A DNA stretch of 64,000 nt from Candidatus Planktophila sp. (GCA_044341805.1 JBIIQY010000001.1:25874-89873), one strand, 5' to 3'; positions 1-19,950 are shown, numbered from the stretch's first letter. Numbers and translations: made by a program. The notes: generated by a model not told the origin, from the sequence alone.

Positions 1-9
1 CTCGCTCAT
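1..9 (-). CDS. 5' end of a divergent gene (M-S-E...) running off the window edge
   Basis: CAT at 7-9 (minus-strand ATG AGC GAG) with a minus-strand GAGGAG RBS (ctcctc 16-21); only 3 codons visible. Confidence 0.6.
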
Positions 10-32
10 TGAAATCTCCTCTTTGTGTGTGG

Positions 33-70
33 GGTTTACTGTATACAATTTAATGGCCCGAGGGTAGTCT
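33..70 (+). promoter_or_regulatory. Operator copy 1 overlapping the -35 of a sigma70-type promoter for the FAH-SDR-aldolase operon
   Basis: GGTTTACTGTATACAATTT (33-51); TATACA(42-47)-17 bp-TAGTCT(65-70). Confidence 0.7.
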
Positions 71-107
71 TACCGCTATCTATTTTTGAGCCTAGAAAGG
101 TGCTTTC

Positions 108-761
108 ATGAATCTTCCGCTACCAATGCCTGGAAAGGTAATCGCCGTCGGTCTTAACTATAAAGACCATGCAGCCGAGGCAAATGTCCCACTACCAGAA
201 GTTCCAGTCCTATTTACTAAGTGGACAACATCTTTGATTGCTCATGATGACAACATTGTGATCCCAGCCGGTGTAACACAGACAGACTGGGAAGCAGAGT
301 TCGCGGTAGTAATTGGCAAGAAAGCTGTTCGAGTATCAGAAGCCGATGCACTTAGCTATGTTTCTGGATATACCTGTATGAACGATGTAACAGATCGAGA
401 AGCACAGGGTAAAGATGGCCAGTGGGTGCGAAGTAAGTCATATGACACCTACGGTCCGATCGGTCCTCGCATTGTTCCGGCCAGTGAAATCGGTGATCCA
501 CACAATCTAAAGATTGAAGCTCGCTTGAATGGAAAGACGGTTCAGTCAAGCAATACCTCAAATCTAATTTTTAGTATCCCTTTCTTAATTTCATATATCT
601 CAGCACGCATCACCTTGGAACCGGGCGATGTAATCACCACCGGAACACCTCATGGAGTTGGTGCGTTCTCAAAGCCACCGCTATTTATGAAACCTGGAGA
701 TGTAATTGAAGTCGAGATCGAGAAGATCGGAATTCTAAGAAACAAAGTCGTAGGGGCTTAA
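108..761 (+). CDS. Fumarylacetoacetate hydrolase family protein
   Basis: VGLNYKDH, DWEAE, NDVT-R, QWVRSKSYDT, TGTP motifs; AAAGG RBS. Confidence 0.92.
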   Translation: MNLPLPMPGKVIAVGLNYKDHAAEANVPLPEVPVLFTKWTTSLIAHDDNIVIPAGVTQTDWEAEFAVVIGKKAVRVSEADALSYVSGYTCMNDVTDREAQGKDGQWVRSKSYDTYGPIGPRIVPASEIGDPHNLKIEARLNGKTVQSSNTSNLIFSIPFLISYISARITLEPGDVITTGTPHGVGAFSKPPLFMKPGDVIEVEIEKIGILRNKVVGA

Positions 762-763
762 TT

Positions 764-1531
764 GTGAGTTACAAAGGATCTTCGCAACCTCTTGCGGTAA
801 TCACCGGAGGAGCTAACGGAATTGGTTTGGCAACTGCGCATCAATTAGCAAAAGATGGCTACGACCTTTTCCTGATTGACAAAGATCTGTCTAACCTTGA
901 AGTTGCGCGAAATTCGTTGGGGATTCACAACCGCAAGGTCGAAATTCTAAATATTGACCTCTCTGATGGCGAGAATGTCCTACGCGAACTCGGCAAAAAG
1001 TTTAGTGAATTCGAAGTAGATGCCCTCGTAAATAACGCAGGTATTGGCTTTGCTAGAACTGTCGAGCAAACAACCCTAGAAGAGTGGGATCTAACCTTTG
1101 ATGTAAACATCAAGGCTACTTTTTTGATGTGCAAGTTGATTGTGCCTCAAATGGTTGCTCGTAAAAAGGGCGAAATAGTTAATGTGGCATCTGCTGGTGC
1201 CTTGGTTGGGCTTAAGAATAGAGTCGCCTACTGTGCATCTAAAGCTGCAGTGGTTGGTTTAACTCGTTGCATTGCAGCAGATCACGCACTCGATGGGATT
1301 CGAATCAATGCCATTGCACCCGGAACAGTTGATTCAACTTGGATCGGTCGAATACTTTCTGATGCCCCTGATCCTGTGGCCACGAGAAAGTTGATGGAGG
1401 CTCGTCAGCTTGATGGGAAGATGGGAACACCTGAAGAAGTTGCACATGGAATTGCGTTTCTCCTAAGTCCCGAAGCAAGATTTGTGAATGGCACTGTGTT
1501 TTCAATGGATGCCGGACTTACAGCGGTATGA
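764..1531 (+). CDS. SDR oxidoreductase, 2-keto-3-deoxy-sugar-acid dehydrogenase-like
   Basis: TGGANGIG, NNAG, YCASK; the NRVAY, PGTVDSTW and ARQ motifs resemble the 2-keto-3-deoxy-L-fuconate dehydrogenase group. Confidence 0.85.
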   Translation: MSYKGSSQPLAVITGGANGIGLATAHQLAKDGYDLFLIDKDLSNLEVARNSLGIHNRKVEILNIDLSDGENVLRELGKKFSEFEVDALVNNAGIGFARTVEQTTLEEWDLTFDVNIKATFLMCKLIVPQMVARKKGEIVNVASAGALVGLKNRVAYCASKAAVVGLTRCIAADHALDGIRINAIAPGTVDSTWIGRILSDAPDPVATRKLMEARQLDGKMGTPEEVAHGIAFLLSPEARFVNGTVFSMDAGLTAV

Positions 1532-2139
1532 AATCTGGTGTAATTGCTGTAATTCGAACTGATGATCCAGAGATTGCTCTAACGCTGGCTAGAGGTTTCA
1601 ATGCAACAAGTGTTGATGCCATTGAAGTCACCATGACGGTACCTAACGCACTGCAAGTTATTGAGAAATTGCTAGCAGAAGGTGTCACACGTTTAGGTGG
1701 TGGAACCGTTCGAACCATAGAACAAGTTCAAAGATTGCAATCTATGGGTGCTGCTTTTGGTGTTGCGCCAAATTTGGATGAAGCAATTCTTAAGGAAGCT
1801 GTGCGAGTAGGTTTGCCATTTACCCCGGGCACGTTAACTCCATCCGAAATGGTTCGAGCTCAACAACTCGGCGCAACAAGTCTGAAGGTTTTTCCAATAA
1901 GTGCGGTGGGTGGTATTGAATTTATCCATAGCGTTTTGGAGCCTCTTCCTGATTTAGCGCTGGTGGTATCCGGCGGGGTCCAACCGGCAGAAGTGCGCTC
2001 GTATATCGATGCAGGATGTGTTGGGGTGTGCATGGGTGGGGCGCTTTGGAGCCAAGAAATTGCCATGACCCATGATGTGAAAGCTGTTTACCACTATGCG
2101 TGTGCAGCCCTTGAAAGGATTGCCAACCCAACCCGATAA
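1528..2139 (+). CDS. KDPG/KHG aldolase family protein (Eda/DgoA-like)
   Basis: IAVIR, IEVT, GGGTV, PGTLTPSE, LKVFP (Schiff-base Lys); ATGA coupling to the SDR. Confidence 0.88.
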   Translation: MKSGVIAVIRTDDPEIALTLARGFNATSVDAIEVTMTVPNALQVIEKLLAEGVTRLGGGTVRTIEQVQRLQSMGAAFGVAPNLDEAILKEAVRVGLPFTPGTLTPSEMVRAQQLGATSLKVFPISAVGGIEFIHSVLEPLPDLALVVSGGVQPAEVRSYIDAGCVGVCMGGALWSQEIAMTHDVKAVYHYACAALERIANPTR

Positions 2140-2147
2140 AACACCTT

Positions 2148-2186
2148 TTGTATACTGTTTACAATTTGCCCCTTGGACATTACTCT
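2148..2186 (+). promoter_or_regulatory. Operator copy 2 overlapping the -35 of the ppdK-glpX promoter
   Basis: TTGTATACTGTTTACAATTT (2148-2167); TTTACA(2158-2163)-17 bp-TACTCT(2181-2186). Confidence 0.75.
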
Positions 2187-2217
2187 TCAGCCCTACGTTG
2201 TTTATGGGGAGTAAGAG

Positions 2218-4935
2218 ATGACAAAGGTTTCAGACTTTATCTATCCCTTTTCTTTTGGAGATAAGACACAGTCAGATCTTTTAGGTGGCAAAGGCGCAAA
2301 CTTGGCAGAAATGGTCAAGATCGGACTGCCGGTTCCACCTGGATTCACAATTACAACCCAAGCATGTCGAGAATTTTTACGTACTGGAACTCTCCCCCAA
2401 AAACTCATCACCGAATTAGATGCAGCGATCCATGAACTTGAAAGCTCTTTGGGTCGAACCTTTGGAGATCCCGATAACCCGCTAATCATCTCTGTTCGGT
2501 CTGGTGCAAAGTTTTCTATGCCGGGAATGATGGAAACTATTCTCAACGTTGGAATGACACCTGAAGTAGCACATGGTTTGGCTGAACAAACTGGTAATCC
2601 TGAATTTGCCTGGGATTCTTACAGAAGATTTATAGATCTGTATGGACGAATTGTGTGCGATATTCCTAAAGATAGTTTTGCAGATATTGATCATACCTAC
2701 TTGCAAGCGGCAAAGATTAAGACCGTCGACAAGTTAGGTTTTGAACAAACAAAATTGCTTATTGCTGAATACATACAGTTAATTGAAAAAGCCGAAGGTA
2801 AGTCATTTTCTCTTAATCCCCGCGATCATTTACTTCGTTCTGTTGAAGCTGTCTTTCATTCCTGGAATTCTGAACGGGCACAGCTTTACCGCCAGCGAGA
2901 AAGAATTCCCTCTGATCTAGGAACGGCTGTGAATATCCAGTCAATGGTCTTTGGAAATCTAAGTGATGACTCAGGCACAGGTGTTGCCTTTACCCGAAAT
3001 CCTTCCACTGGTGAAAGTGGAAACTATGGTGACTATCTTGAACGAGCTCAAGGTGAAGATGTAGTTGCGGGTATCCGAACCCCCATATCTCTTCATGAAT
3101 TTGCCCAGAAATACCCTTCTGTTTATGCAGATCTTGATTCAACAATGAGCCTCCTTGAAGACCACTATAGGGATCTATGCGACATTGAATTCACGGTCGA
3201 AAAAGGAAAGCTCTGGATTTTGCAAACAAGAGTTGGAAAAAGAACTGCTGAGGCGGCTTTTAGAATCGCTAGTCAATTAGTGGATGAAGGAAAAATCAAC
3301 ATAGATGAAGCACTGCTTCGAACATCGGGCGAACAATTAGTGCACTTGATGTTCCCGCAGTTTGATTTGTCTACAACAACTTTAGAAATTGCAAGGGGCA
3401 TTCCGGCCTCACCCGGGGCGGCTGTTGGTTCAGTTGTGTTTGATTCAAAAAGAGCTCACGATCTTTCCTTAAAGGGTGAGAAAGTGATTCTCGTTAGAAG
3501 AGAAACTAGCCCTGATGACCTTGTGGGCATGGTTGCCTCGGAAGGTATTTTGACAAGCCGAGGAGGCAAAACTTCTCATGCTGCTGTTGTAGCTAGGGGA
3601 ATGGGAAAAACGGCTGTTTGTGGTTGTGAAAGTATCAACGTAGATGAAAAATCAGGCAAGTTCTCTATTGATGATTACGTTGTCCATGAAGGCGACATAA
3701 TTTCGATTGATGGAAGCACAGGGGCGATCTACTTAGGAGAAGTGCCAGTGGTAGCTTCCCATGTAACTTCGTATTTAGAGGGACGACTTGTTGCAGACAA
3801 TCCCAATGCGCCTGCAGTTGTAAAAGCGGTTGACAGAATTCTTACTCATGCAGATACCGTACGTAAATTACGCATACACGCCAATGCAGATACCCCAGAA
3901 GATGCGGTCAGATCAAGAATTCTTGGTGCAGAAGGAGTCGGGTTATGCAGAACAGAGCACATGTTTTTGGGGCCACGAAGAAGTTACATTGAAAGATTAG
4001 TATTGGCAGAAAATGAAGAAGTTCAGAATGGCGTAATCGCCGAGATGGAACCCCTACAAAGAGCTGACTTCGTTGGAATCATGATGGCGATGTCCGGACA
4101 ACCGGTAACTGTGCGCTTGCTTGATCCCCCACTACATGAATTCCTACCGCCGCTTTCAACTCTGATGGCTGAAAAAGCCAGGTCTGAAGCACTTAACTTA
4201 GAAGTATCGGCTCGTGACACAGCAATATTCTCTGCAGTTCAAAGAATGCATGAAGCCAATCCAATGCTTGGATTACGTGGAGTAAGGCTAGGAATCTTGA
4301 TTCCTGAGTTGTATAAAATGCAAGTTCGCGCATTAGTGCATGCATTCATTGAAGTTCAAAGACTCGGTCATACCCCCCTTCCAGAAGTCATGATTCCGTT
4401 AGTAGCTACTCAGCGAGAATTACTCCACTTAAGAGAAACACTTGAGCAAGAGATAAAAGCAACATTTGCTCACGCCGGCCAAACAACAACTTTCCCCATT
4501 GGAACCATGATTGAAACTCCACGTGCTGCGATTACCGCTGATCGCCTTGTGCCGTATGCCGATTTCTTCTCATTTGGTACAAATGACTTAACTCAGTTGA
4601 CATGGGCATTTAGCAGAGATGATGTTGAATCCTCATTCTTACCTAGATACCTTGATTTAGAGTTACTGCCCTTTAACCCCTTCGAGTCACTTGATGAAGC
4701 GGGGGTCGGAATTCTTGTTAGAACCGCAGTAGAACATGCCAGACGACTTGATCCTCAATTCAAACTAGGCATCTGTGGTGAACATGGTGGAGATCCTCGC
4801 AGTATTCACTTCTTTAACTCGCTAGGAATTGATTATGTCTCATGTTCCCCATTTAGAGTTCCAATAGCTCGGCTAGAAAGCGGAAGAGCTTCAATAAGTG
4901 CTAATAATGCATCAGGGGTTAGCAATAATGCTTGA
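2218..4935 (+). CDS. ppdK: Pyruvate, phosphate dikinase
   Basis: LGGKGANLAEM, SVRSGAKFSMPGMM, TSHAAVVARG (phospho-His), GLCRTEHMF, FSFGTNDLTQ, GICGEHGG; 905 aa. Confidence 0.97.
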   Translation: MTKVSDFIYPFSFGDKTQSDLLGGKGANLAEMVKIGLPVPPGFTITTQACREFLRTGTLPQKLITELDAAIHELESSLGRTFGDPDNPLIISVRSGAKFSMPGMMETILNVGMTPEVAHGLAEQTGNPEFAWDSYRRFIDLYGRIVCDIPKDSFADIDHTYLQAAKIKTVDKLGFEQTKLLIAEYIQLIEKAEGKSFSLNPRDHLLRSVEAVFHSWNSERAQLYRQRERIPSDLGTAVNIQSMVFGNLSDDSGTGVAFTRNPSTGESGNYGDYLERAQGEDVVAGIRTPISLHEFAQKYPSVYADLDSTMSLLEDHYRDLCDIEFTVEKGKLWILQTRVGKRTAEAAFRIASQLVDEGKINIDEALLRTSGEQLVHLMFPQFDLSTTTLEIARGIPASPGAAVGSVVFDSKRAHDLSLKGEKVILVRRETSPDDLVGMVASEGILTSRGGKTSHAAVVARGMGKTAVCGCESINVDEKSGKFSIDDYVVHEGDIISIDGSTGAIYLGEVPVVASHVTSYLEGRLVADNPNAPAVVKAVDRILTHADTVRKLRIHANADTPEDAVRSRILGAEGVGLCRTEHMFLGPRRSYIERLVLAENEEVQNGVIAEMEPLQRADFVGIMMAMSGQPVTVRLLDPPLHEFLPPLSTLMAEKARSEALNLEVSARDTAIFSAVQRMHEANPMLGLRGVRLGILIPELYKMQVRALVHAFIEVQRLGHTPLPEVMIPLVATQRELLHLRETLEQEIKATFAHAGQTTTFPIGTMIETPRAAITADRLVPYADFFSFGTNDLTQLTWAFSRDDVESSFLPRYLDLELLPFNPFESLDEAGVGILVRTAVEHARRLDPQFKLGICGEHGGDPRSIHFFNSLGIDYVSCSPFRVPIARLESGRASISANNASGVSNNA

Positions 4936-5857
4936 AACACTTTCCTTCGAAGAGATTCAAAAAGTAACCAAGTCGGCAGCTGAAAGCGTCTTTGATCTTC
5001 ACGGCTCCATGGACAGAAATGCAATTGATGCGGCCGCTGTAAATGCGATGCGCAGTGTACTTAACTCAATTACCATGAATGGAACAGTAGTTATAGGTGA
5101 AGGCCAAAAAGATAACGCTCCGATGCTAAAAAATGGCGAGAAAGTAGGAAATGGCGCTGGTCTTGCATTTGATATAGCAGTTGATCCAATTGATGGAACA
5201 TCATTAGTGGCCAAAGGAAAAACTGGCGCTGTTAGTTTAATTGCACTTTCTCCAAGTAACACAATGTTTAATCCAGAAGACAATTTCTATATGTACAAAT
5301 TAGTTACAGGCCACGAAGCTGCTGCCAAGGTCTCTATTACTCGACCCTTAATAGAAAATCTACACATCATCGCAGAGGCAAAGTCCAAAGAAATCCAGGA
5401 ATTAGTCGTTAATGTCTTACGCCGGCCAAGGCATGAAAAATTGGCTTTAGAATTACAGGCAATTGGTATAAAGGTTAGATTTTTTGATGATGGCGATGTT
5501 ACAGCTGCATTGGCAACTTGTTTACCTGATACTGAAGTTGATGCAATGATCGGTATCGGAGGTTCGCCTGAAGCGGTGATTGCAGCTGCAGGAATAATCG
5601 CTTTAGGTGGAAACATTCAAACTCAACTTGTCTCAAAGAATGACATTGAGGTATTCACGGATAACCCCTTGAAACCACTTAATCTTCCAGTACTAACCAA
5701 ATATGATCTTATTCATTCAAATAATGTTTTGCTATCAATTACCGGCGTATCCGATAATGAACTTGTTAAAGGATTAAAGCGCGAGGGCTCGAAGATTATT
5801 TCAGACACATTAATCATCAGTCGGTTAAGTAACGGCCCCTTGATGCTCCATTTATAG
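4928..5857 (+). CDS. glpX: Fructose-1,6-bisphosphatase class II (GlpX), divergent
   Basis: VIGEGQKDNAPML, DIAVDPIDGT, RPRH, DGDV, GIGGSPE; ATG at 4928 overlaps the ppdK 3' end. Confidence 0.85.
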   Translation: MLETLSFEEIQKVTKSAAESVFDLHGSMDRNAIDAAAVNAMRSVLNSITMNGTVVIGEGQKDNAPMLKNGEKVGNGAGLAFDIAVDPIDGTSLVAKGKTGAVSLIALSPSNTMFNPEDNFYMYKLVTGHEAAAKVSITRPLIENLHIIAEAKSKEIQELVVNVLRRPRHEKLALELQAIGIKVRFFDDGDVTAALATCLPDTEVDAMIGIGGSPEAVIAAAGIIALGGNIQTQLVSKNDIEVFTDNPLKPLNLPVLTKYDLIHSNNVLLSITGVSDNELVKGLKREGSKIISDTLIISRLSNGPLMLHL

Positions 5858-5858
5858 T

Positions 5859-5877
5859 AATTGTTAACCGTTGACAA
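5859..5877 (-). promoter_or_regulatory. Operator copy 3 upstream of the SDR-ADC-like pair
   Basis: Reverse complement reads TTGTCAACGGTTAACAATT, matching copies 1, 2 and 4. Confidence 0.6.
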
Positions 5878-5905
5878 AACTCGAGAATAAAGGAAGGCTT
5901 TCTGC

Positions 5906-6715
5906 ATGAACTCATCTACTTCTTTATTTGACCTAACTGGCCGAAGCGTATTGATTACAGGTGGTGGTGGAGCACTTGGTAGTGCGATAGGCCTTGGACT
6001 ATCGCAAGCTGGTGCCGAAGTGATTATTGTCGATATCAACCTTGAGAATGCGAACAATGTTGTCAAAGCTATAAAAGCTACGGGTGGAGTTGCTCATGCT
6101 TTTGAAGGTGATTTAAGCCAAGAGTCAGAAGTCGAAGATTTATTTGCAAAGATCGACAAGATTACTACTGTAAACATTTTAGTAAATGCAATTTCAGCTC
6201 CGCAATATCGATCATCACCAGATGTAATGCCACTAAAGGATTGGGAGAAAACGATTTCTCATGACCTTACTAGTTTTTTTCTTACTTCTCGCGCTGCTGC
6301 ACAACGAATGATAAAGGCAGGTAAAGGTGGCAGCATCATAAACTTTAGTTCCATTGCTGGCGCATCAGCTCTAGGTCGAGGCAGCGTTGCCTATGGAGCA
6401 GCTAAGGCTGGAATAATTCAATTTACAAAAGATTGTGCTTTTGATTGGGCACGTCATGGCATTCGGGTAAATTCTATTTTGCCCTGCCAATTTGATAACG
6501 CGGGTTGGGCAGAATTCAAAAAAGACCCCATCAGAGCAAAATTAGTGGATCGTGTAATTTCGGGAATCCCTATGGGGCGCTTTGGAAGCCCTGAAGAAAT
6601 GGTGGGTCCTGTGCTTTTCCTTGCATCAGACGCGGCATCAATGGTGACCGGAATTGCGATGCCTGTCGATGGTGGAAATCTAGCGATGAACCCTGGTGGA
6701 AGTATTGATTGGTAA
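5906..6715 (+). CDS. SDR oxidoreductase (gluconate 5-dehydrogenase/KduD-like)
   Basis: LFDLTGR, TGGGGALG, YGAAK, IPMGRFG, VDGG. Confidence 0.88.
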   Translation: MNSSTSLFDLTGRSVLITGGGGALGSAIGLGLSQAGAEVIIVDINLENANNVVKAIKATGGVAHAFEGDLSQESEVEDLFAKIDKITTVNILVNAISAPQYRSSPDVMPLKDWEKTISHDLTSFFLTSRAAAQRMIKAGKGGSIINFSSIAGASALGRGSVAYGAAKAGIIQFTKDCAFDWARHGIRVNSILPCQFDNAGWAEFKKDPIRAKLVDRVISGIPMGRFGSPEEMVGPVLFLASDAASMVTGIAMPVDGGNLAMNPGGSIDW

Positions 6716-6748
6716 TTAATAACATAAGTATTACAAAGGAGAATTTAC

Positions 6749-7537
6749 ATGTCTGAACTTCATTATCTTCATAACATTCCATCACCTTATGATGCACATT
6801 CCGTTCCACTTGATACACCTCTAACTGGACCGCCTCCTGCACGATTTAAGGATAGTGAAGTTCTGGTTGCCCAATATCGCACCAACCCAGCTGCAATTGC
6901 GGCGTTAGTGCCTGAACCACTTGTACCAATTAGCGATGTTGTAATGGTGCAAATCGGCCGCTGGGGTGACGTTGCAGGCATGGGGGCCAATACCCAAGAG
7001 GTTAATGTGATGGTGCAAGTTGAATTCAATGGACCAAATGGAAAAGTGACAGGTGCATATTCACCATACTTTTACGTTGATAGTGATCGCGCGATGGCAG
7101 GCGGACGTGAGTTTCACGGGCAACCGAAGCGGTTTGCAAATGTGCAATTAGAAACCCGTGAGGATTTAATCGTAGGAACAATGCACCGAAATGGAATAAA
7201 TGTTTTCACTGCAACCTTGCCTTACAAAGCCAAGCCATGTGATATTTCAGAAGTTTCAAAACGGGTTAATTTCATCAAAAACATTAATTTGAAGTTAATT
7301 CCTCAAATTGATCGTACCCGCGGAATTAGGCAACTTACGGCCCGTGATTTCACTGATATAGAAGTTACTGAATGTTGGACTGGTCCCGTAACAAGTAGAA
7401 TTGAAGAAAATGCGCAAGCACCGATGTATCGACTGCCAGTTGTGCAGCATTTAGAGGGGTTTTACTGGAAAGGTGCGTTTTCATTGGTTGGCGGAGTAGT
7501 CCTCCATGAATATGAAGGAACCCCAGGGGTAAAGTAA
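6749..7537 (+). CDS. Acetoacetate decarboxylase-like superfamily protein
   Basis: YRTNPAAIAALVPEPL, GGREFHGQPKR (Schiff-base Lys motif), CWTGP; AAGGAG RBS. Confidence 0.85.
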   Translation: MSELHYLHNIPSPYDAHSVPLDTPLTGPPPARFKDSEVLVAQYRTNPAAIAALVPEPLVPISDVVMVQIGRWGDVAGMGANTQEVNVMVQVEFNGPNGKVTGAYSPYFYVDSDRAMAGGREFHGQPKRFANVQLETREDLIVGTMHRNGINVFTATLPYKAKPCDISEVSKRVNFIKNINLKLIPQIDRTRGIRQLTARDFTDIEVTECWTGPVTSRIEENAQAPMYRLPVVQHLEGFYWKGAFSLVGGVVLHEYEGTPGVK

Positions 7538-7543
7538 GTAATA

Positions 7544-9943
7544 CTAAGAGTTAAGACTCAATGCAGCTAATGCGCCATTGATGATCGACTCCGCATTCAA
7601 ATCATGGATGGCATACAAATCTGGGATATTTCCTGATTGTCCGAAATTATCCACGCCCATAGCAACTTGTGGCATCCCGAGCGCAGATCCTAACCATGCC
7701 ATGGCATGTGAAGAACCATCATGGATAGAAACTATTGGAGCTTTTTCGGTGAATGTAGTTCTTAAGACGCCAGGTAAAGATGGAGTCGTAGCAGTGCGAA
7801 TTCCCTGCTTTAAGGTTCGCTGCCAACTTCCAAAAACTCGGCCTAACGAAGTGATGTCAATGACGTGAGCGATAACGCCCTCTAAGGCGAGTTGTTTAGC
7901 TGCCGCTAGAACTTCTGGCATCACAGCGCCGCTACTAGCCAAGTAAACAACTGGTGCAAGATGATTATCCTGTTTTGTTAAAGCACTTCGACCGTCTACT
8001 AATTTATAAGCACCTGCAAGTACTTGTGAACGCAAGGTTGCTTCACCGATACGTTGTTTTGCTTCATAAAATGGTTGTTGGTCTATGGATCGTGTAGTTA
8101 GTCTGAAATAAAAAGCCAGTTCGTTAGGTCTAAGATCTGGTGCGGTATTTTTCTTTGCTCCAGCGACGTGTGCTAATGCATCACACAATAACCAATCAAG
8201 AGACTGAGCATACGCAGGCTCCATAAGTACTACACCTGGTAATTCAACTCCAACAGATGGCGTAATTGTTGATTGATGTGCCCCTCCTTCTGGAGCAAGT
8301 GTTATTCCTGATGGAGTGCCAGCAACTATAAACTTTGCGCCAGAATAAACGCTGTAGATAAATGCATCTAGTCCTCGCAAAACAAATGGATCATAAACAG
8401 TACCTATTGGAATGAGAGGCTGGTCTGAGATATCTCCTGAGATTCCGAGCTGGCCCAATAAAGTAAATAGATTCATCTCACTGATCCCAAGTTCGATGTG
8501 TTGGCCATTGGGACCTTCTACCCATTTTTGAATTGAGTTGTCATTCCACTCGCGTTTAACATCCTTGTTAAAGATTCCATGCCGATTTATGAATCCACCC
8601 AGATTTGTAGAAGTCGCAACATCCGGAGCCGTGGTGACCAAATACGGTCTAATTTCTTCATTCCTGCTGAGTTCGGTCAGTACGCGCCCAAAAGCCTCTT
8701 GGGAAGATGAGGATCCTGTCGGCGCTATGCCTGTCGAATGAGGAAACTCGGCCACGATTTCAGCTTTTTTGGAGGCCCGCTTCAGCGAGTGAGCTCTCGA
8801 TAAACAGAGAGAATCCTCTGCACTTCCAGGCTCAAACTTACTCCACTCATTTGATTCAGTTAATCCCGTCAAGTTCCGTAACTCATCAATCTGCTTTTTT
8901 GAAATTTGCGCTGAGTGATTTCTCTTGTCTCCGGCGATAGGTAGATGCCATCCTTTGATTGTGTAAGCAAACACAACACTTGGCTTGTCTTCTACTTCAT
9001 CACATTCTTTAAATGTTTCTAGCAGTGATGAAATATCATGTCCACCTAAGTCAGTTAGAATCTCGAAAAGTTCTTCATTATTGTATTTTTCTAAAAACTT
9101 GCTCACGCCATCGGGTGAACCCTCTAAAAATCGAATTCGAGCTGCTTCAGGAGTGAGCCCAAAAAGTGATTGATACTGTTCGTTTGGAATCTGGTCAAAC
9201 CAGACTTTGAATTTATGGCTATCTGAATCTTCAAATACCCTATTTAACTTCGAACCATACTTCACTTCTTTAACATGCCAACCAGCCGCTTCAAATTGTG
9301 CTCTCCATTGTGCAATGCGAACTCCAGGAATTACACGATCCAGAGACTGTCTATTGAAATCCACAATCCACATTACGTTTCCTAAATTGGTGGTTATGGG
9401 ATCGGCGAGTGCTTCCCAAATATTTCCTTCATCTAATTCAGCATCACCAATCACCGAAATAAAACGAGATTTCGGCCTTGGTCCAAAATGTGAATCCACG
9501 TACTGCCTTGTAACTGCCGCAAACAAAGGTGCAACTGCACCTAAGCCAACCGATCCAGTTGAAAAATCAACTGTGTCCGGATCTTTTGTCCTTGAAGGAT
9601 AACTTTGTAAACCACCTGCTTCACGAAGCTTTTTTAAGTAATCCTGATCAAGATTTCCTAAAAGGTATTGAATGGAGTGAAAAACCGGAGATGCGTGAGG
9701 CTTAATGCTTATACGATCTTCGGAGTCCAGAAAATCAAAATATAAGGCAGTTAGAATCGAAGCCATCGACGCACTAGAAGCTTGATGCCCACCAACCTTT
9801 ATGCCGTCTACATTAGGCCTGTCGGAATTGGCATAGTCGATCATTCTGGTAGACAGCCATAAAACACGATCTTGAATAGCCTCTAATACTTCAAGTTCGC
9901 CCGTGTGATTTAACTCAGCCTTAACACCAATTTCAGAGTTCAT
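7544..9943 (-). CDS. ThDP-dependent AceE-like (pyruvate dehydrogenase E1 / transketolase family) enzyme
   Basis: VGGHQASSAS, KPHASP, STGSVGLG, GDAELDEG...NRQSLD ThDP motif, ELGISE, EGGAHQS, FGQSG. Confidence 0.9.
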   Translation of the reverse strand: MNSEIGVKAELNHTGELEVLEAIQDRVLWLSTRMIDYANSDRPNVDGIKVGGHQASSASMASILTALYFDFLDSEDRISIKPHASPVFHSIQYLLGNLDQDYLKKLREAGGLQSYPSRTKDPDTVDFSTGSVGLGAVAPLFAAVTRQYVDSHFGPRPKSRFISVIGDAELDEGNIWEALADPITTNLGNVMWIVDFNRQSLDRVIPGVRIAQWRAQFEAAGWHVKEVKYGSKLNRVFEDSDSHKFKVWFDQIPNEQYQSLFGLTPEAARIRFLEGSPDGVSKFLEKYNNEELFEILTDLGGHDISSLLETFKECDEVEDKPSVVFAYTIKGWHLPIAGDKRNHSAQISKKQIDELRNLTGLTESNEWSKFEPGSAEDSLCLSRAHSLKRASKKAEIVAEFPHSTGIAPTGSSSSQEAFGRVLTELSRNEEIRPYLVTTAPDVATSTNLGGFINRHGIFNKDVKREWNDNSIQKWVEGPNGQHIELGISEMNLFTLLGQLGISGDISDQPLIPIGTVYDPFVLRGLDAFIYSVYSGAKFIVAGTPSGITLAPEGGAHQSTITPSVGVELPGVVLMEPAYAQSLDWLLCDALAHVAGAKKNTAPDLRPNELAFYFRLTTRSIDQQPFYEAKQRIGEATLRSQVLAGAYKLVDGRSALTKQDNHLAPVVYLASSGAVMPEVLAAAKQLALEGVIAHVIDITSLGRVFGSWQRTLKQGIRTATTPSLPGVLRTTFTEKAPIVSIHDGSSHAMAWLGSALGMPQVAMGVDNFGQSGNIPDLYAIHDLNAESIINGALAALSLNS

Positions 9944-9949
9944 GATGAA

Positions 9950-10915
9950 TTACTTACCAAGTGCTTTCTTGATTCTACTTTCAAGTGGATATTCTTTGGG
10001 TTCTTTATTGGAACCCTTCATCCACCACTGGTAATACTCAGCAAGCATATCTTTGAGGTCGTATGCAGGAGCAAAACCTAATTGACTAAGAATTTTCTCT
10101 GAACTTAAAAACGCATTATTTTCTGGGAAAGGGAAAGCAACATTTTTTAGATCAAAGTTGAGAGTATCAATTTGAAAATCTTCAGGTTGATATGAAACTA
10201 CAATTGGTTCAATTCCACATACTTCTGCCGCCAAATCAACGAAACCGCGACTTGTTGTTGCTTGTGGTACTGCTAGGTTGAATTCCTCGCTGCCATTACT
10301 TCTCTTTAGACTTAAGATCCTGACAATGGCACTAGCTACATCGCCTGCATAAATGAATGAGTGGATCGACTTGCCGCCATTGGCTAAAAATATTGGCTGT
10401 TTGGCTAGCAGTCGACTAAATGCAAAGGATTCTCTGTCTTCGTAATTATCAGGTCCCATTACAAATGGAAGCCGTAGCGCGGTTGTATCAAAAGCGCCCT
10501 TTGCGTTGAATTCCCGGAGTAGTGATTCGGAACGGATTTTCTCTGCAGCATATGGAGCAAATGGATGCGGAGGTCCTTTAGGAAAATCTTCTGTTATAGG
10601 AAACGATTGACTGGATGTGTAGACAGCTCCTGTGGAAATAAAAATATAGCGAGATATCTTTCCAGCAAAAAAGTTTCCTGCCTCTTCAACCCAATCTGAT
10701 GCATAGGCTGAAAAATCTATGACCGCATCAAATTTGGAATCTTTGAATTGTTCCAGTGCCCCTGGTTGAGATCGATCACAAATAACGTTATGGGAACCTT
10801 TGTTCTCTTCGCGAGTTCCTCTATTTGCAATCGTGACTTCAACTCCGACATCTTTCAATGCGCGCAGAACATAACGGCCCATAAAACGAGTTCCACCAAA
10901 AATCAAAACATTCAT
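9950..10915 (-). CDS. NAD-dependent epimerase/dehydratase family (extended/atypical SDR)
   Basis: GGTRFMG, ANRG, ISTGAVY, YAAEK. Confidence 0.88.
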   Translation of the reverse strand: MNVLIFGGTRFMGRYVLRALKDVGVEVTIANRGTREENKGSHNVICDRSQPGALEQFKDSKFDAVIDFSAYASDWVEEAGNFFAGKISRYIFISTGAVYTSSQSFPITEDFPKGPPHPFAPYAAEKIRSESLLREFNAKGAFDTTALRLPFVMGPDNYEDRESFAFSRLLAKQPIFLANGGKSIHSFIYAGDVASAIVRILSLKRSNGSEEFNLAVPQATTSRGFVDLAAEVCGIEPIVVSYQPEDFQIDTLNFDLKNVAFPFPENNAFLSSEKILSQLGFAPAYDLKDMLAEYYQWWMKGSNKEPKEYPLESRIKKALGK

Positions 10916-10954
10916 TGTTCGTCCTTACGCTACGTGTCCCTGTGCATTATCAGT

Positions 10955-10994
10955 ATTGTAAACAGTTGACGATTGGATATCAAGGTACTAGCAT
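10955..10994 (+). promoter_or_regulatory. Operator copy 4 overlapping the -35 of the dehydratase-kinase-enolase promoter, in a divergent intergenic region
   Basis: ATTGTAAACAGTTGACGA (10955-10972; revcomp TCGTCAACTGTTTACAAT); TTGACG(10966-10971)-17 bp-TAGCAT(10989-10994). Confidence 0.75.
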
Positions 10995-11002
10995 CCGGTT
11001 TT

Positions 11003-12106
11003 ATGGATGCGATCAGCAGGATCCAAACTTATGAAGCTCGAGTTCCGCTTCCGCAACCGCTATCAGTAGGCACTGCGCAAATTACTCATCGGACTTACTC
11101 AGTTGTACGAATAACGACAAACGATGGTTTGGTAGGAATAGGTTATTGCTACAGCAGAGGTCTGCCAATCTCAAAATTAATCGATGACGTAATGACACCT
11201 GTTGCTATTGGTAAAGACTCAAAATCACCCGATGTCGTACGCAAACTCATTCTTGGATTTAACTGGCAATCTAGCGAACACGGCACGGTTACATCTGGAG
11301 TGAGTGCGATAGATATTGCGCTACATGACATAGCAGGAAAGCGTGCCGGAATTAGTGTCTCAAAAATGCTCGGCGGTACCGTGACTGAGGTTCCCATTTA
11401 TTCAGTTGTTGGATATCACTATGGCGAGAATGAAGTCGGACTTGAAGAAGAAATACACCATGCTTTAGAGCGGGGAATAAAATCATTTAAAATTGTTGTT
11501 GGGGCTAGAGATCCTCAAAGAGATGCCAATCGATTAAGGACTCTAAGAAGCCTGGTTGGCGACAGTGCATATATTGCAGTTGATGCATTTCGAACTTTTG
11601 GCACTTTAGAGAATGCAATTGCCAGAGTTAATCTAATCAAAGAGTATGGGATTTCCTTTGTTGAAGACCCTTTCCTAGAATCTGAAGGTAAATTAGCTAT
11701 TGCATTACGAGATGCCACCGGTGTTCCAGTTTCATTTGGAGAATCTCTTGCCTCTTCAAAAATGGCAGAGCAAGTCATTGATTACAACCAAGTAGATGTT
11801 CTGCGAATTGATGCATTGGTTATTGGTGGAGTAAATGAGTTCATCAAGGCTGCGAACTATGCCCACGCTAAAGGCAAGAGCTATGCAACGCATATTCATA
11901 GTGAAATACATGCTCAATTGGCTCCTTTGACCTCAAACATGTATCCAGGGGGCTTGGAGTACTTAGATCCACGGTATGAAATTGATCTATTCCATCATTT
12001 ATTGCTTAAACCACTTAAAATTAGGGATGGAAATGCAATCATTAGTTCAGAGCCTGGCTTTGGAATTGCTTGGGATATGGAAGCAGTGAAAAGATTTTCT
12101 TCGTGA
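11003..12106 (+). CDS. Mandelate racemase/muconate lactonizing enzyme family protein (probable acid dehydratase)
   Basis: SAIDIALHDIAGK; metal ligands VDA/VEDP/GES; D (RIDA), H (THIH), E (LEY). Start moved to ATG 11003 because the promoter covers the TTG at 10973. Confidence 0.9.
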   Translation: MDAISRIQTYEARVPLPQPLSVGTAQITHRTYSVVRITTNDGLVGIGYCYSRGLPISKLIDDVMTPVAIGKDSKSPDVVRKLILGFNWQSSEHGTVTSGVSAIDIALHDIAGKRAGISVSKMLGGTVTEVPIYSVVGYHYGENEVGLEEEIHHALERGIKSFKIVVGARDPQRDANRLRTLRSLVGDSAYIAVDAFRTFGTLENAIARVNLIKEYGISFVEDPFLESEGKLAIALRDATGVPVSFGESLASSKMAEQVIDYNQVDVLRIDALVIGGVNEFIKAANYAHAKGKSYATHIHSEIHAQLAPLTSNMYPGGLEYLDPRYEIDLFHHLLLKPLKIRDGNAIISSEPGFGIAWDMEAVKRFSS

Positions 12107-12135
12107 AATTGATTGCGAATTAGTGGAATTGGGTC

Positions 12136-13119
12136 ATGGAACTATTAACTGAAGAAACGGTGATTGATTACCTGAAGGATAAGAGTCTCTTTGCTCAGGA
12201 TGAAGAAATTAGAGTTGAAATCCTGACAGGTGGCGTTTCCAATACCGTTCTTGCAATTTCTACAACGAATAGGCATTTAGTTCTGAAGCAAGCTCTCCCT
12301 GCGCTAAAGGTAGCCGAACTGTGGGAAGCAGATCCCCGTAGAGCAATAGTTGAGGCAGATGCTTTAGATCTTTTCCATAGCCTTAATCCAGAGATTGTTC
12401 CCAAGTTAGTTTTTGTCGACCCCATTCGGTTTGTGGTCATTATGGAGAGAGTTCCGCTCTCAAGCAGAGTATGGAAATCAGATTTGCTTGAAGGGATCTA
12501 TCGGCCGCAAGTTGCTCACACTCTTGGGAAAACTCTCTCTCAGTGGCATAACTACGGTGCCTCAAATCCTGTTGCTCGCAAGAAGTTCATGGAAGACACC
12601 TTGTTTGATCAGCTAAGAATTGATCCTTTCTATCGATTTGTTGCAGCCAAGAATGCAAAATTACAAGATTCAATTCAGCATTTAATTGCTGAACTAGAGA
12701 GTGACAAATCAACAATAGTTCATGGAGATTTTTCTCCCAAGAATTTTATGGTCACAGAAGATGATCACGTCTATATCTTGGATTTTGAAGTAATGCATGT
12801 GGGGAACCCTGTATTTGATCTAGCATTCATATTGGCTCATCTGTTATGTAAGTTTTTCCACGCACCCAATGCGAAAGAAGCTGCTGAGTTATCAAATATT
12901 GCAAAAACCTTCTTGAACGCCTATCAAGAACAAACTGAGATTTCAGTATCTCTGGTGCTGCACACCGCCTTAATTGCACTTGCACGAGTCGAAGGTAAAT
13001 CACCAGTTAACTACTTAAGCACGTCTGAACAAGAAAAGATTCAACTGCTGACCAAGAAAGTGCTGTTTGATCAAGAAACACCGAATGTCTTGACTCTTTT
13101 TGATTTGAGTAAGCGATGA
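12136..13119 (+). CDS. APH/choline-kinase-fold phosphotransferase, methylthioribose-kinase-like
   Basis: LTGGVSN, VLKQALPALKV, HGDFSPKN, LDFE, GNPVFDL. Confidence 0.85.
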   Translation: MELLTEETVIDYLKDKSLFAQDEEIRVEILTGGVSNTVLAISTTNRHLVLKQALPALKVAELWEADPRRAIVEADALDLFHSLNPEIVPKLVFVDPIRFVVIMERVPLSSRVWKSDLLEGIYRPQVAHTLGKTLSQWHNYGASNPVARKKFMEDTLFDQLRIDPFYRFVAAKNAKLQDSIQHLIAELESDKSTIVHGDFSPKNFMVTEDDHVYILDFEVMHVGNPVFDLAFILAHLLCKFFHAPNAKEAAELSNIAKTFLNAYQEQTEISVSLVLHTALIALARVEGKSPVNYLSTSEQEKIQLLTKKVLFDQETPNVLTLFDLSKR

Positions 13120-14387
13120 AGATCAGCAAATTACTGGGGTTTCAGGTTTTGGATTCCAGGGGTAGACCAACTGTCGCTGCTTCAATCACTCTAGAAGATG
13201 GCACCACCCATACTGCACGTGTGCCGTCGGGAGCTTCGACTGGAAAGCATGAAGCTTTGGAATTACGCGATGGCGATACATTAGGTAAAAATTCTTTCTA
13301 CGGACCGCTTTCGGTTTCTGGGGCGGTCAGCAATATAAATCTACGAATTGCACCATTAGTGGTTGGGAAACAGGCTGACCTGAATTTCGTTGATGGTGTT
13401 ATTCGCGACATAGACACAACATCAAATTTTTCTTCACTTGGCGCTAATGCGACTCTGGCAGTTTCTTTAGCTTCGGCCAAAGCTTCGGCACATTCGCAAA
13501 ATCTGTCTCTGGCTCGATTTTTTCAACCACACGATAATTTGTTGATTCCGATGCCCATGGTGAATATTCTTTCCGGCGGAGCACACGCAAAACGATCACT
13601 TGATTTCCAAGATGTTCTCGTAATTCCAAACGGTGCAATTTCCTTCACAGAAGCCTTAGCCTGGATTGTTGCTATTCGAGAAACAGCTGCAAAACTTGGT
13701 AGCCAGGCTGGAATGGTCACGCACTTAGTTGCTGATGAAGGTGGCTTGGGAATAGCTTTTAATTCAATTGAATTAGCAATTGATTTTGTTGTTCAGGCAA
13801 TTGAAAAAGTCGGTCTAAAGCCAAAAACTCAAGTTTCATTTGCGCTAGATGTTGCCTCTACCCAGTTTTTCTCTAATGGGACATATAACTTAGCCGCTTC
13901 TAAAAAAACTTATGCATCGGGTGATTTTGTCTCTTACATACATGGGCTGGTTTCGAATTATCCAATAGTTTCGATTGAAGATCCCTTTGCAGAAGATGAT
14001 TGGCAGAGCTGGAGTTCCTTTATGGACATTGCCCCCAAGGATTTGCAAGTGCTTGGAGATGATCTATTAACAACTAATTCTGAGCGTTTGAAAAGAGCTA
14101 TCAAAGAGCAAGCTGCGAACTCAATTTTGATTAAACCAAATCAAAATGGATTAGTGACAAACACCCACAAAGTATTGATGGAAGCACAAAGTGCAGGGTT
14201 TAGGACCGTGGTCTCTGCACGTTCTGGTGAGACAGAAGACTCTTGGTTGTCTGATTTGGCAACTGGATGGCGAGCAGCTCAAATAAAAGTTGGCTCGACT
14301 CATGGTTCAGAACGAACAGCTAAATGGAACCGCTTGCTCGAATTAGAGCAGACCGAAAATGTGGAGTTCAGTAAACCGTTCAAGTGA
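13116..14387 (+). CDS. eno: Enolase paralog (phosphopyruvate hydratase-like), divergent
   Basis: DSRGRPTV, PSGASTG, ELRDG, DEGG, IEDP, GDDL, LIKPNQ, SARSGETED, QIK; ATGA-coupled to the kinase. Confidence 0.9.
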   Translation: MKISKLLGFQVLDSRGRPTVAASITLEDGTTHTARVPSGASTGKHEALELRDGDTLGKNSFYGPLSVSGAVSNINLRIAPLVVGKQADLNFVDGVIRDIDTTSNFSSLGANATLAVSLASAKASAHSQNLSLARFFQPHDNLLIPMPMVNILSGGAHAKRSLDFQDVLVIPNGAISFTEALAWIVAIRETAAKLGSQAGMVTHLVADEGGLGIAFNSIELAIDFVVQAIEKVGLKPKTQVSFALDVASTQFFSNGTYNLAASKKTYASGDFVSYIHGLVSNYPIVSIEDPFAEDDWQSWSSFMDIAPKDLQVLGDDLLTTNSERLKRAIKEQAANSILIKPNQNGLVTNTHKVLMEAQSAGFRTVVSARSGETEDSWLSDLATGWRAAQIKVGSTHGSERTAKWNRLLELEQTENVEFSKPFK

Positions 14388-14391
14388 TGCT

Positions 14392-14476
14392 TGGTGGCGG
14401 GTGAAGGATTTGAACCTTCGAAGGCAGAGCCGGGGGATTTACAGTCCCCTCCCATTGGCCGCTCGGGCAACCCGCC
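14392..14476 (-). tRNA. tRNA-Tyr (GTA)
   Basis: Revcomp GGCGGGTTGCCCGAGCGGCCAATGGGAGGGGA-CTGTAAA-TCCCCCGGCTCTGCCTTCGAAGGTTCAAATCCTTCACCCGCCACCA; long variable arm, encoded CCA. Confidence 0.97.
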
Positions 14477-14580
14477 AAGGTCGAACAAGTACTGCGGCAA
14501 TTATGGATAGTGCGAAGGGAAAGGATACCTTAGGCAAGTGCGCATACAAACCGCGCTTTTTCGAGTCAAGGAGTCCTTAA

Positions 14581-15072
14581 ATGGCAGCAGATGCAAGTTT
14601 TGACGTAACCTCCAAAATCGACCGTATGGAGCTGGATAACGCCATTAACCAGGCGGTCCGCGAGATCGAGACCCGCTTTGATTTCAAGAACACCGGTTCC
14701 AAAATTGAACTGGAAGGCGATAAGGTTTTGATTGAAGCAGATACCGAAGAGCGCGCGAAGGCGGCGCTAGATGTTGTAAAGGACAAGATGATCAAGCGTG
14801 GTGTTTCTTTGAAGCATCTAGATGCAGGTACTCCGCAGTTGTCAGGAAAGATTTACAAGATTGCAGCACCTTTGAAGGAAGGCATCTCCACTGAGAATGC
14901 AAAGAAGATTGCAAAGAAGATTCGTGATGAGGGCCCAAAGTCTGTTAAGACTCAAATTCAAGGTGACGAACTCCGCGTTACTTCAAAGAGTCGTGATGAT
15001 CTTCAAGAAACAATGGCCATGATCAAAGATGGTGGCTGGGATTTTGCCGTTCAATTCACGAACTTTAGATAA
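14581..15072 (+). CDS. yajQ: YajQ family nucleotide (c-di-GMP)-binding protein
   Basis: [34 protein letters not shown]. Confidence 0.95.
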
Positions 15073-19948: not shown

Positions 19949-19950
19949 GA

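What the first reader, a model, noticed from the sequence alone, without database searches (positions are those of the whole stretch)
1..14387. Co-regulated 12-gene catabolic island for an unidentified acid substrate, carrying its own paralogs of central-carbon enzymes
Seen in sequence: five compact transcription units, namely FAH-SDR-aldolase, ppdK-glpX, SDR-ADC-like, epimerase-AceE-like (minus strand) and dehydratase-kinase-enolase. They share one operator and end 4 bp from the tRNA-Tyr CCA. Established: FAH + SDR + MR-family dehydratase + KDPG-type aldolase are the building blocks of non-phosphorylative sugar-acid routes such as the L-fuconate/L-rhamnonate diketo-hydrolase type. I know no described pathway that adds an MtnK-like kinase, a mutated enolase, an ADC-like protein, an orphan E1-like ThDP enzyme, PPDK and GlpX. 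Inference: an undescribed catabolic pathway with its own gluconeogenic exit. The regulator and transporter probably lie left of the window.
Basis: partly seen in the sequence, partly recalled or inferred. Interest (0 to 1): 0.85.

Follow-up and report, generated by a model that had tools for sequence, protein, structure and literature searches.

The report
Undescribed sugar-breakdown regulon with altered enolase
A freshwater actinobacterium carries a 23-gene block at a tRNA gene whose core recurs as one compact cluster in distant soil actinobacteria, and it likely breaks down a still unidentified sugar, probably using a kinase and an enolase copy with an altered substrate pocket in a step I found no description of.

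Summary
The 12 genes, strands, operator and 4-bp gap to tRNA-Tyr are real. The unit is larger: 23 genes over about 25 kb, including a GntR/FadR regulator left of the window. This population lacks the ABC transporter, which a same-genus genome (G405) keeps.

The block is a composite. Six window genes (SDR2, ADC, epimerase-like SDR, MR enzyme, kinase, enolase variant), usually with FAH, recur with E1α/β and a 2-hydroxyacid dehydrogenase as a compact cluster in 12 soil-type actinobacterial loci, several beside a monosaccharide transporter. PPDK, GlpX, aldolase, SDR1 and the AceE-like gene are absent from those loci.

PPDK and GlpX are single copies, not paralogs. The enolase keeps its catalytic base, acid and metal ligands but has three smaller pocket residues in every covered homolog. 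It follows the kinase in 66 of 80 loci. This scan found that pair earlier on other DNA; the wider regulon and soil cluster were not in my look-ups.

Best reading: oxidative sugar catabolism in which kinase plus variant enolase dehydrate a glycerate-like acid with a larger C3 group. The substrate is unidentified and co-induction is untested.

The parts
1..9 (-). Start of a D-2-hydroxyacid dehydrogenase, first gene of the leftward operon (lipoyl-only protein, E1 alpha, E1 beta, SDR follow). The regulon continues 10.7 kb left, G000:C89:15262-25882: GntR/FCD regulator, Ldh_2 dehydrogenase, second MR enzyme, FGGY kinase, FMN hydroxy-acid dehydrogenase, KduD-like SDR
38..49 (.). Operator-like palindrome between the divergent 2-hydroxyacid dehydrogenase and FAH genes
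   Evidence: same site in 5 of 5 relatives
108..761 (+). FAH-family hydrolase; 50-55% to the FAH of the soil cluster
   Evidence: PF01557; NF053535 238 bits vs cut-off 500
764..1531 (+). SDR1, short-chain dehydrogenase (accessory: 0 of 12 soil loci)
1528..2139 (+). KDPG/KHG-type aldolase (accessory)
   Evidence: PF01081; TIGR01182 140 vs 156
2147..2165 (.). Two overlapping operator-like sites before ppdK
   Evidence: kept in G405
2218..4935 (+). Pyruvate, phosphate dikinase; the only copy found
   Evidence: TIGR01828 1190 vs 843
4928..5857 (+). GlpX class II fructose-1,6-bisphosphatase; the only copy found; start chosen by the G405 ortholog
   Evidence: TIGR00330 276 vs 259
5860..5871 (.). Degenerate operator-like site before SDR2-ADC (weak)
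5906..6715 (+). SDR2, hexonate/gluconate 5-dehydrogenase-like (core)
   Evidence: 12 of 12 soil loci at 43-49%
6749..7537 (+). Acetoacetate-decarboxylase-family protein with the Schiff-base lysine aligned (core in soil loci, often lost in lake variants)
   Evidence: NF002614 157 vs 150
7544..9943 (-). AceE-like ThDP enzyme; its alignment starts at residue 64 of the E. coli E1 chain (accessory)
   Evidence: TIGR00759 212 vs 860
9950..10915 (-). Extended SDR ('epimerase' family), partner of the MR enzyme (core)
   Evidence: PF01370
10955..10966 (.). Operator-like palindrome overlapping the predicted -10 of the minus promoter and touching the -35 of the plus promoter
   Evidence: conserved in relatives
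11003..12106 (+). MR2, mandelate-racemase-subgroup enzyme: metal ligands and His-Asp pair kept, second lysine of KxK absent (core); longest ORF starts at 10973
12136..13119 (+). APH-fold small-molecule kinase, distantly MtnK-like; overlaps the enolase start
   Evidence: PF01636; TIGR01767 97 vs 275
13116..14387 (+). Variant enolase (S153, D166, A368 where housekeeping enolases have N, E, H); 44% to the genome's own housekeeping enolase
14392..14476 (-). tRNA-Tyr whose 3' end borders the island; right boundary

Best explanation
The block is a real 23-gene cluster at tRNA-Tyr that is likely one FadR-repressed regulon for oxidative breakdown of an unidentified monosaccharide or its acid, in which the kinase and variant enolase probably phosphorylate and then dehydrate a glycerate-like acid with a larger group on carbon 3. 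Proposed flow (all steps inferred): ABC uptake; SDR oxidation to the aldonate; the one-base MR enzyme eliminates the C3 group to give a 2-keto-3-deoxy acid; an SDR plus FAH, or the aldolase, cleave off pyruvate; ADC removes CO2 from a 3-oxo acid made by an SDR. The leftover short (2R)-2,3-dihydroxy acid, best guess a tetronate such as L-threonate or D-erythronate, is 2-phosphorylated and dehydrated to an enol phosphate, whose 2-oxo acid is split by an aldolase or oxidised by the E1 enzymes. PPDK and GlpX are add-ons that would let a genome otherwise lacking them make sugar phosphates from pyruvate. Shown: genes, families, residues, operator-like sites, co-occurrence, modular gain and loss. Not shown: any substrate, reaction or co-induction.
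For: Regulon: conserved sites; an FCD-type GntR with its own site at contig 21769; the motif fits the GntR consensus and TKGT/ACMA boxes given in PMC4494728 (passages). One pathway core: MR2, ADC, SDR2, extended SDR, kinase, 2-hydroxyacid dehydrogenase, E1 alpha and beta in 12 of 12 soil-type loci (10 distinct MR2 sequences), enolase in 11, FAH in 6. In the 4 whose genomes I extended, a monosaccharide-type ABC ATPase lies beside the cluster; a DUF4432 gene is in 7 of 12. In the family sample, 17 of 400 genomes have the solute-binding protein and 22 of 400 have MR2; all 17 are among the 22, across 5 genera, usually on separate contigs. Kinase-enolase: variant enolase in 67 of 80 kinase loci, directly downstream in 66; D for E in 65 of 65 covered, A/G for H in 63 of 63, S/G for N in 65 of 65, with base, acid, metal and phosphate ligands unchanged; 9 of 9 housekeeping copies canonical. 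Of 12 long kinase homologs scanned, one is fused to this enolase and three to a PEP-hydrolase-like domain. An RraA-type aldolase precedes the enolase in L064 (same arrangement in L068). Known-type glycerate kinases lie beside the pair in L103 and L140, which argues that the kinase is not a plain D-glycerate kinase.
Against: No enzyme has a close characterised relative among my searches; nearly all pathway-specific HMMs are below cut-off. The kinase-enolase pair is generic: 135 of 400 family genomes have the kinase but only 22 have MR2, and 4 of those 22 have no kinase match; it also sits in L-arabinonate-dehydratase, aromatic and anaerobe clusters. PEP carboxylase and PPDK as neighbours fit PEP itself as the product. 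MR1 and the lactonase-like gene were not found in the 4 soil genomes with the compact cluster, so the lake regulon may serve more than one substrate. The soil cluster has a LacI regulator, not FadR. This population lacks the transporter and lactonase-like genes (genome 55% complete). Family members are kin, so co-occurrence counts overstate independence. The pocket argument rests on sequence and recalled enolase structure; I made no model.
Confidence: 0.45

Rival explanations
1. Same regulon, but the kinase is a new-fold D-glycerate 2-kinase and the variant enolase is an ordinary enolase: hexonate to pyruvate plus D-glycerate to PEP, as in non-phosphorylative Entner-Doudoroff routes.
For: The enolase passes TIGR01060 (416 vs 300) and keeps base, acid and metal ligands. 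The order FAH, D-2-hydroxyacid dehydrogenase, kinase, enolase recurs. ppc precedes dehydrogenase and kinase in Rhizobium. G070 and G177 have a GlxK-like gene by the transporter and no kinase match.
Against: A housekeeping enolase would suffice, yet the variant accompanies the kinase in 67 of 80 loci with three invariant changes. Known-type glycerate kinases co-occur with the pair.
Confidence: 0.2
2. The pair handles L-glycerate or a 3-O-substituted glycerate (for example from L-hexonates or O-methyl sugars) and releases PEP itself, the wider pocket fitting the other enantiomer or a larger leaving group.
For: PEP-using neighbours. A lactate-racemase-family gene and a URO-D-family gene flank the pair in L131. 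An FMN L-hydroxy-acid dehydrogenase is in the island.
Against: The general base lysine is unchanged, which favours D-glycerate-like geometry at C2 (inference). Aldolase neighbours and PEP-hydrolase-like fusions suggest a product other than PEP.
Confidence: 0.2
3. The block is not one pathway but a scavenging collection of several small modules for different acids, gathered under one repressor at a tRNA hot spot.
For: Variants at the same site lack ADC, SDR2, or kinase-enolase. The same operator also precedes a second sugar ABC system and a DHDPS-like gene in relatives, and an FAD-oxidase/ADC/SDR unit on contig C44. Other genomes carry other cargo at this tRNA. This rival is partly true for the accessory genes in any case.
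Against: An 8-gene core stays together in 12 of 12 soil-type loci at 34-57% identity under a different regulator.
Confidence: 0.15

Closest known systems
Non-phosphorylative L-fucose / L-rhamnose route with diketo-hydrolase (SDR, lactonase, FucD or RhmD dehydratase, SDR, FAH), outlined for SAR202 in PMC10444878 (passages)
   Same: FAH next to an SDR, MR-family enzymes, an FMN hydroxy-acid dehydrogenase, pyruvate as likely product.
   Different: MR2 is not FucD- or RhmD-like (RhmD model 52 vs 393; partial, weak match to solved FucD; no second KxK lysine). No amidohydrolase lactonase. Adds ADC, kinase, variant enolase and E1 enzymes.
Glycolytic enolase (EC 4.2.1.11, TIGR01060)
   Same: Passes the family cut-off; keeps S39, H159, Q167, E211, D246, E295, D320, K345, R374, S375, K396 (yeast numbering, mapped by recalled motifs; roles of S39, E211, K345 from PMC4450660 passages).
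   Different: N152S/G, E168D, H373A/G in all covered members; tied or fused to a kinase; 44% to the genome's own housekeeping copy.
Non-phosphorylative Entner-Doudoroff end module (glycerate 2-kinase plus enolase; recalled; PMC2063504 seen as listing and abstract start only)
   Same: A kinase making a 2-phospho acid followed by an enolase, downstream of sugar-acid cleavage.
   Different: The kinase is APH-fold, not MOFRL or GlxK, and a dedicated altered enolase is kept with it.
L-ascorbate / 3-keto-L-gulonate catabolism (UlaG lactonase, YiaK Ldh_2 reductase, LyxK FGGY kinase, decarboxylase; recalled)
   Same: Lake versions have an UlaG-like metallo-hydrolase, an Ldh_2 enzyme, an FGGY kinase and a beta-keto acid decarboxylase; threonate is an ascorbate breakdown product (recalled).
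   Different: All matches are far below cut-off (UlaG 72 vs 306, YiaK 141 vs 316); no SgbH/SgbU/SgbE; these genes are absent from the soil core.
tRNA-flanked additive genomic islands of Planktophila (GI2-GI4 in PMC12817590, section 17 read)
   Same: Variable cargo beside a tRNA in a streamlined freshwater actinobacterium.
   Different: That section names no such pathway; 'enolase', 'sugar acid' and 'gluconeogenesis' do not occur in the main text. Its supplementary island table was not read.

Membership tests
L-fucose/L-rhamnose diketo-hydrolase pathway | FucD- or RhmD-type dehydratase | tested here: not met
   MR2: RhmD model 52 vs 393, best model 155 vs 500; L-fuconate dehydratase 2hxu only E 6e-15 over residues 152-375; second KxK lysine absent in 10 of 10 aligned. 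MR1: RhmD 126 vs 393.
L-fucose/L-rhamnose diketo-hydrolase pathway | FAH-family 2,4-diketo-3-deoxy-aldonate hydrolase beside an SDR | tested here: inconclusive
   Arrangement present and NF053535 is the best model, but 238 vs 500.
L-fucose/L-rhamnose diketo-hydrolase pathway | Amidohydrolase-type lactonase | tested here: not met
   None among the 23 genes; relatives have an UlaG-like metallo-hydrolase instead.
L-fucose/L-rhamnose diketo-hydrolase pathway | Growth on or induction by the sugar | not testable with these tools
   Needs culture.
Glycolytic enolase | Family HMM and Mg, base, acid and phosphate ligands | tested here: met
   416 vs 300; residues.
Glycolytic enolase | E168 and H373 in the C3 pocket | tested here: not met
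   D and A in the window; 65 of 65 and 63 of 63 covered homologs changed; 9 of 9 housekeeping copies canonical.
Glycolytic enolase | 2-phosphoglycerate dehydratase activity | not testable with these tools
   Needs assay.
Methylthioribose kinase MtnK | TIGR01767 cut-off and an mtnA neighbour | tested here: not met
   97 vs 275; no isomerase among island genes; only weak matches to solved MtnK.
Acetoacetate decarboxylase family | Subfamily HMM and Schiff-base lysine | tested here: met
   NF002614 157 vs 150; lysine motif aligned with 3bgt and 3bh2. Substrate not tested.
Homodimeric pyruvate dehydrogenase E1 (AceE) | TIGR00759 cut-off, N-terminal region and an E2 gene beside it | tested here: not met
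   212 vs 860; alignment starts at residue 64 of 1l8a; a separate housekeeping AceE is on C20. The ThDP-binding motif is present.
PPDK and GlpX | Equivalog cut-offs and catalytic motifs | tested here: met
   1190 vs 843 and 276 vs 259; motifs located (motifs recalled).
PPDK and GlpX as paralogs | A second, housekeeping copy in the genome | tested here: not met
   One copy each in G000 (55% complete) and G405 (94% complete); GlpX not found in complete G014 and G145.
FadR-subfamily regulon | GT-N-AC palindrome in promoters and a GntR+FCD regulator in the block | tested here: met
FadR-subfamily regulon | Binding and co-induction | not testable with these tools
   Only assembled RNA-library contigs were available.
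Integrative tRNA-anchored mobile island | Integrase and duplicated tRNA 3' end | tested here: not met
   The tRNA 3' 16-mer occurs once in the assembly; no integrase among the genes.
Integrative tRNA-anchored mobile island | Empty site or other cargo in relatives | tested here: met
   In complete G308 the amino-acid ABC gene that flanks the island here lies about 130 bp from tRNA-Tyr; G007, G145, G077 and G014 carry other cargo.

The most novel reading that the evidence does not exclude
A whole undescribed monosaccharide catabolic pathway, kept from soil Gaiellales-type actinobacteria to streamlined lake bacteria, that contains a second reaction for the enolase subgroup: ATP-primed dehydration of a sugar-derived acid longer than glycerate by a kinase plus remodelled enolase, coupled to an ADC-type decarboxylase and a dedicated 2-oxoacid dehydrogenase. 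Databases label the enzyme plain 'eno'.
Probability: 0.5. Interest if true: 0.75.

Novelty: new variant of a known kind. Interest (0 to 1): 0.55.

Why it matters
The enolase subgroup is generally taken to catalyse one reaction (recalled). A widespread branch with a remodelled pocket and its own kinase would be a new activity hidden under a wrong annotation; RefSeq plasmid records call it phosphopyruvate hydratase. The compact soil cluster, with its own regulator and transporter, gives a small, complete gene set for finding the substrate. That would name a carbon source for some of the most abundant lake bacteria. The series of variants at one tRNA, from empty site to full block, also shows how such a regulon is assembled and trimmed.

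Tried and rejected
Repeat finder on 1-14600 gave only chance-like repeats; the operator was found by reading intergenic DNA. Generic promoter and terminator scans were below shuffle levels. No att duplication or integrase. GC is only slightly low, 44.0% vs 45.7-45.8% in the flanks.

Solved-structure searches for the kinase, MR2, MR1, SDR1, SDR2, ADC, extended SDR, AceE-like protein, enolase and G405 binding protein gave no close characterised match. The nearest to MR1 are structural-genomics entries (4dx3, 2pod). The ESM Atlas gave only APH clusters. The enolase homolog search returned only close relatives in its top 120.

RNA-library contigs cover parts of the island but cannot show transcription, strand or co-induction; not used as evidence. 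An assembly artefact for the missing transporter was rejected: contigs of runs X16 and X17 bridge the junction.

Sulfolactate as enolase substrate was considered because of the neighbouring sulfoquinovose-like genes and rejected: I saw no sulfonate genes in the kinase loci I listed, and the pocket stays acidic. 3,6-anhydro-galactonate cycloisomerase is MR2's best solved match but has the second lysine that MR2 lacks. Apionate and ascorbate products remain untested guesses.

Paper searches found no description of the cluster or pair. The library lacks most subscription papers, where much enolase-superfamily work is published, and I read no supplements. No structure or complex prediction was run.

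Full report
Setting. The window is G000:C89:25874-89873 of an 858-kb, 55%-complete assembly. The closest named kinase records are Ca. Nanopelagicus and Ca. Planktophila, and the DNA is held by lake metagenomes, so the host is a freshwater Nanopelagicaceae (acI) bacterium; the genus is my inference.

Twelve ORFs, their strands and families, and the 4-bp gap to tRNA-Tyr are as described. The palindrome ACTGTWWACAAT occurs three times in the window against 0.03 expected. At 10955 it overlaps the predicted -10 of one promoter and touches the -35 of the divergent one. Because the pattern came from these sites, I tested it elsewhere: five related genomes hold 16 exact copies against 4 for the reversed control. 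Eleven are at promoters orthologous to the island's, one precedes the binding-protein gene, and four precede other transport or catabolic genes. The site at 5860 is weak. The motif fits the GntR consensus in PMC4494728 (passages).

The unit is larger. Left of the window lie eleven more genes: D-2-hydroxyacid dehydrogenase, an 82-aa lipoyl-only protein, E1 alpha, E1 beta, SDR, GntR/FCD regulator, Ldh_2 dehydrogenase, a second MR enzyme (MR1), FGGY kinase, FMN hydroxy-acid dehydrogenase and a KduD-like SDR. Operator-like sites stand at contig 15230, 19962 and 21769. The left border is a SAM-IV-led amino-acid ABC operon. G405 has the same block in the same order at 82-98% identity, without ADC. 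It also has five genes missing here: binding protein, two permeases, an UlaG-like hydrolase and a Sua5-like gene. The binding protein, hydrolase and Sua5-like gene were not found in G000. The two flanking genes overlap at their stop codons, and contigs from two runs not flagged as a source bridge that junction, so the loss is real in this population.

The site is a hot spot, not a self-mobile element. There is no integrase and no tRNA-end duplication. Complete G308 has the empty site; G007 and G145 carry a different sugar-acid cluster there; G077 and G014 carry other cargo. Metagenome contigs show a series: L251 and L258 hold 11 of the 12 window genes in order (FAH lies beyond the fetched edge), L253 lacks ADC, L248 lacks SDR2 and ADC, and L263 and L264 keep only PPDK, GlpX, AceE-like, extended SDR and MR2.

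Core and accessory genes. In a 400-genome family sample MR2 was found in 22 and the binding protein in 17; all 17 are among the 22, in five genera, mostly on different contigs. In those I fetched, the transporter block and the MR2-kinase-enolase block are separate loci under the same motif. Far outside the family, four named or uncultured actinobacterial genomes (L108 is a Gaiellaceae record) and eight metagenome contigs hold a compact cluster. I picked these 12 loci by eye; two pairs have identical MR2, so 10 are distinct. MR2, ADC, 2-hydroxyacid dehydrogenase, SDR2, extended SDR, kinase, E1 alpha, E1 beta and a LacI regulator are in 12 of 12, the enolase in 11, a full E2 in 8, DUF4432 in 7 and FAH in 6, some loci being cut short. 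SDR1, aldolase, PPDK, GlpX, AceE-like, MR1, FGGY, FMN dehydrogenase, Ldh_2 and GntR are in 0 of 12. In the four genomes I extended, a monosaccharide-type ABC ATPase adjoins the cluster. MR1 and the hydrolase were not found in those four, and AceE-like in one, on another contig. So a real pathway core exists, and its input is likely a simple sugar (inference from transporter type, LacI and DUF4432, whose mutarotase-like fold is recalled).

PPDK and GlpX pass their cut-offs but are single copies in G000 and G405. PPDK was found in 36 of 112 genomes of the genus; GlpX was not found in complete G014 and G145. They cover the two irreversible steps from pyruvate to sugar phosphate (established knowledge), which fits a route ending in pyruvate. 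'Gluconeogenic exit' is reasonable; 'paralogs' is not. The AceE-like protein does have a housekeeping counterpart on C20 and travels with FAH, SDR1 and PPDK in another genus.

The kinase-enolase pair. The kinase was found in 135 of 400 family genomes. Among the 80 best of 596 GTDB loci, 67 have the variant enolase and 66 have it directly downstream; of the 13 without, three end within 260 bases of the kinase. The three pocket changes are invariant where covered, and all other catalytic residues are kept. The nine housekeeping controls include L013 from unpublished genome G042; the other eight give the same result. Roles of S39, E211 and K345 are from PMC4450660 (passages); the yeast numbering and the roles of N152, E168 and H373 are recalled. 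Fusions to the enolase and to a PEP-hydrolase-like domain occur (12 of the 150 listed proteins scanned). The pair also sits in unrelated clusters, so its substrate is probably a small common end product. Tight linkage implies the housekeeping enolase cannot use the kinase's product; three smaller residues imply a larger C3 group. Aldolase neighbours and hydrolase fusions point to a product of four or more carbons, while ppc and ppdK neighbours point to PEP. I favour a tetronate-like acid, but not strongly. Earlier notes of this scan describe the same pair and the lipoyl-only protein; my look-ups returned none on the whole regulon or the soil cluster.

MR2 keeps three metal ligands and the His-Asp pair but not the second lysine of KxK in 10 of 10 aligned sequences. 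That fits an eliminase rather than a racemase (inference) and separates it from L-fuconate dehydratase. ADC keeps its lysine and is closer to true acetoacetate decarboxylases than to MppR-like proteins.

Verdict. The feature is real and conserved, and I found no description of it in eight targeted searches of an open-access library that misses most subscription enzymology. It works like a non-phosphorylative sugar-acid route but fails membership of the fucose/rhamnose type. It is best filed as a new variant with an unassigned substrate; the altered enolase is the part a specialist would find surprising.

Noticed in passing
L002:524-5873 and L001:1-5404 (G000:C89:524-11277): Cluster of Gfo/Idh/MocA oxidoreductase, LacD-type aldolase, PfkB kinase, GntR, sugar ABC, an isomerase whose best model is sulfoquinovose isomerase (265 vs 700) and a split UxaA-like pair. 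It looks like an actinobacterial sulfoglycolysis variant with a sulfolactate lyase (recalled). Also present in G077 and, at least in part, G014.
   Followed up: partly
L001:9144-9256 (minus): SAM-IV riboswitch ahead of an amino-acid ABC transporter; marks the island's left border.
   Followed up: yes
G000:C44:9594-12522: A perfect operator-like site precedes an FAD-oxidase-like gene, a second ADC (34%) and an SDR; this unit joins the transporter block in other genomes. Probably a second locus of the regulon.
   Followed up: partly
G000:C2:25686-27672 and C51:359-2869: An MhpD-like hydratase plus Ldh_2 pair, and an 836-aa unannotated protein, each behind an operator-like site. The pair sits next to MR2-kinase-enolase in other genomes.
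   Followed up: partly
G000:C89:24642-24890: 82-aa lipoyl-only protein beside E1 alpha/beta; the soil cluster has a full E2 at this place.
   Followed up: partly
L293:9978-19785 (G007) and L294 (G145): A different sugar-acid cluster at the same tRNA-Tyr site: an MR enzyme resembling L-fuconate dehydratase (recalled; 23% to MR2), amidohydrolase lactonase-like gene, FAH, SDR and sugar ABC.
   Followed up: partly
L060:7591-8523: A 310-aa protein with only a weak U32 match precedes SDR-kinase-enolase in 17 of 35 acI-like loci; role unexplained, not found in G000.
   Followed up: no
L070:5479-6135: A Sua5/YrdC-domain gene below cut-off is a steady member of the transporter block, odd for a sugar cluster.
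   Followed up: no
L061:4497-11725 (G325) and G014: Minimal arrangement: arabinose isomerase, then binding protein, two permeases, kinase and variant enolase only. Its binding protein is a simple handle on the kinase substrate.
   Followed up: no
L294 and L297: G145 and G014 have a second copy of the tRNA-Tyr 3' end 1.7 and 6.3 kb away, a sign of integration at this tRNA in other strains.
   Followed up: no
window 14581-21840: Core genes right of the tRNA: YajQ, RarD, polyprenyl synthase-like gene and NADH dehydrogenase-like subunits; ordinary.
   Followed up: no
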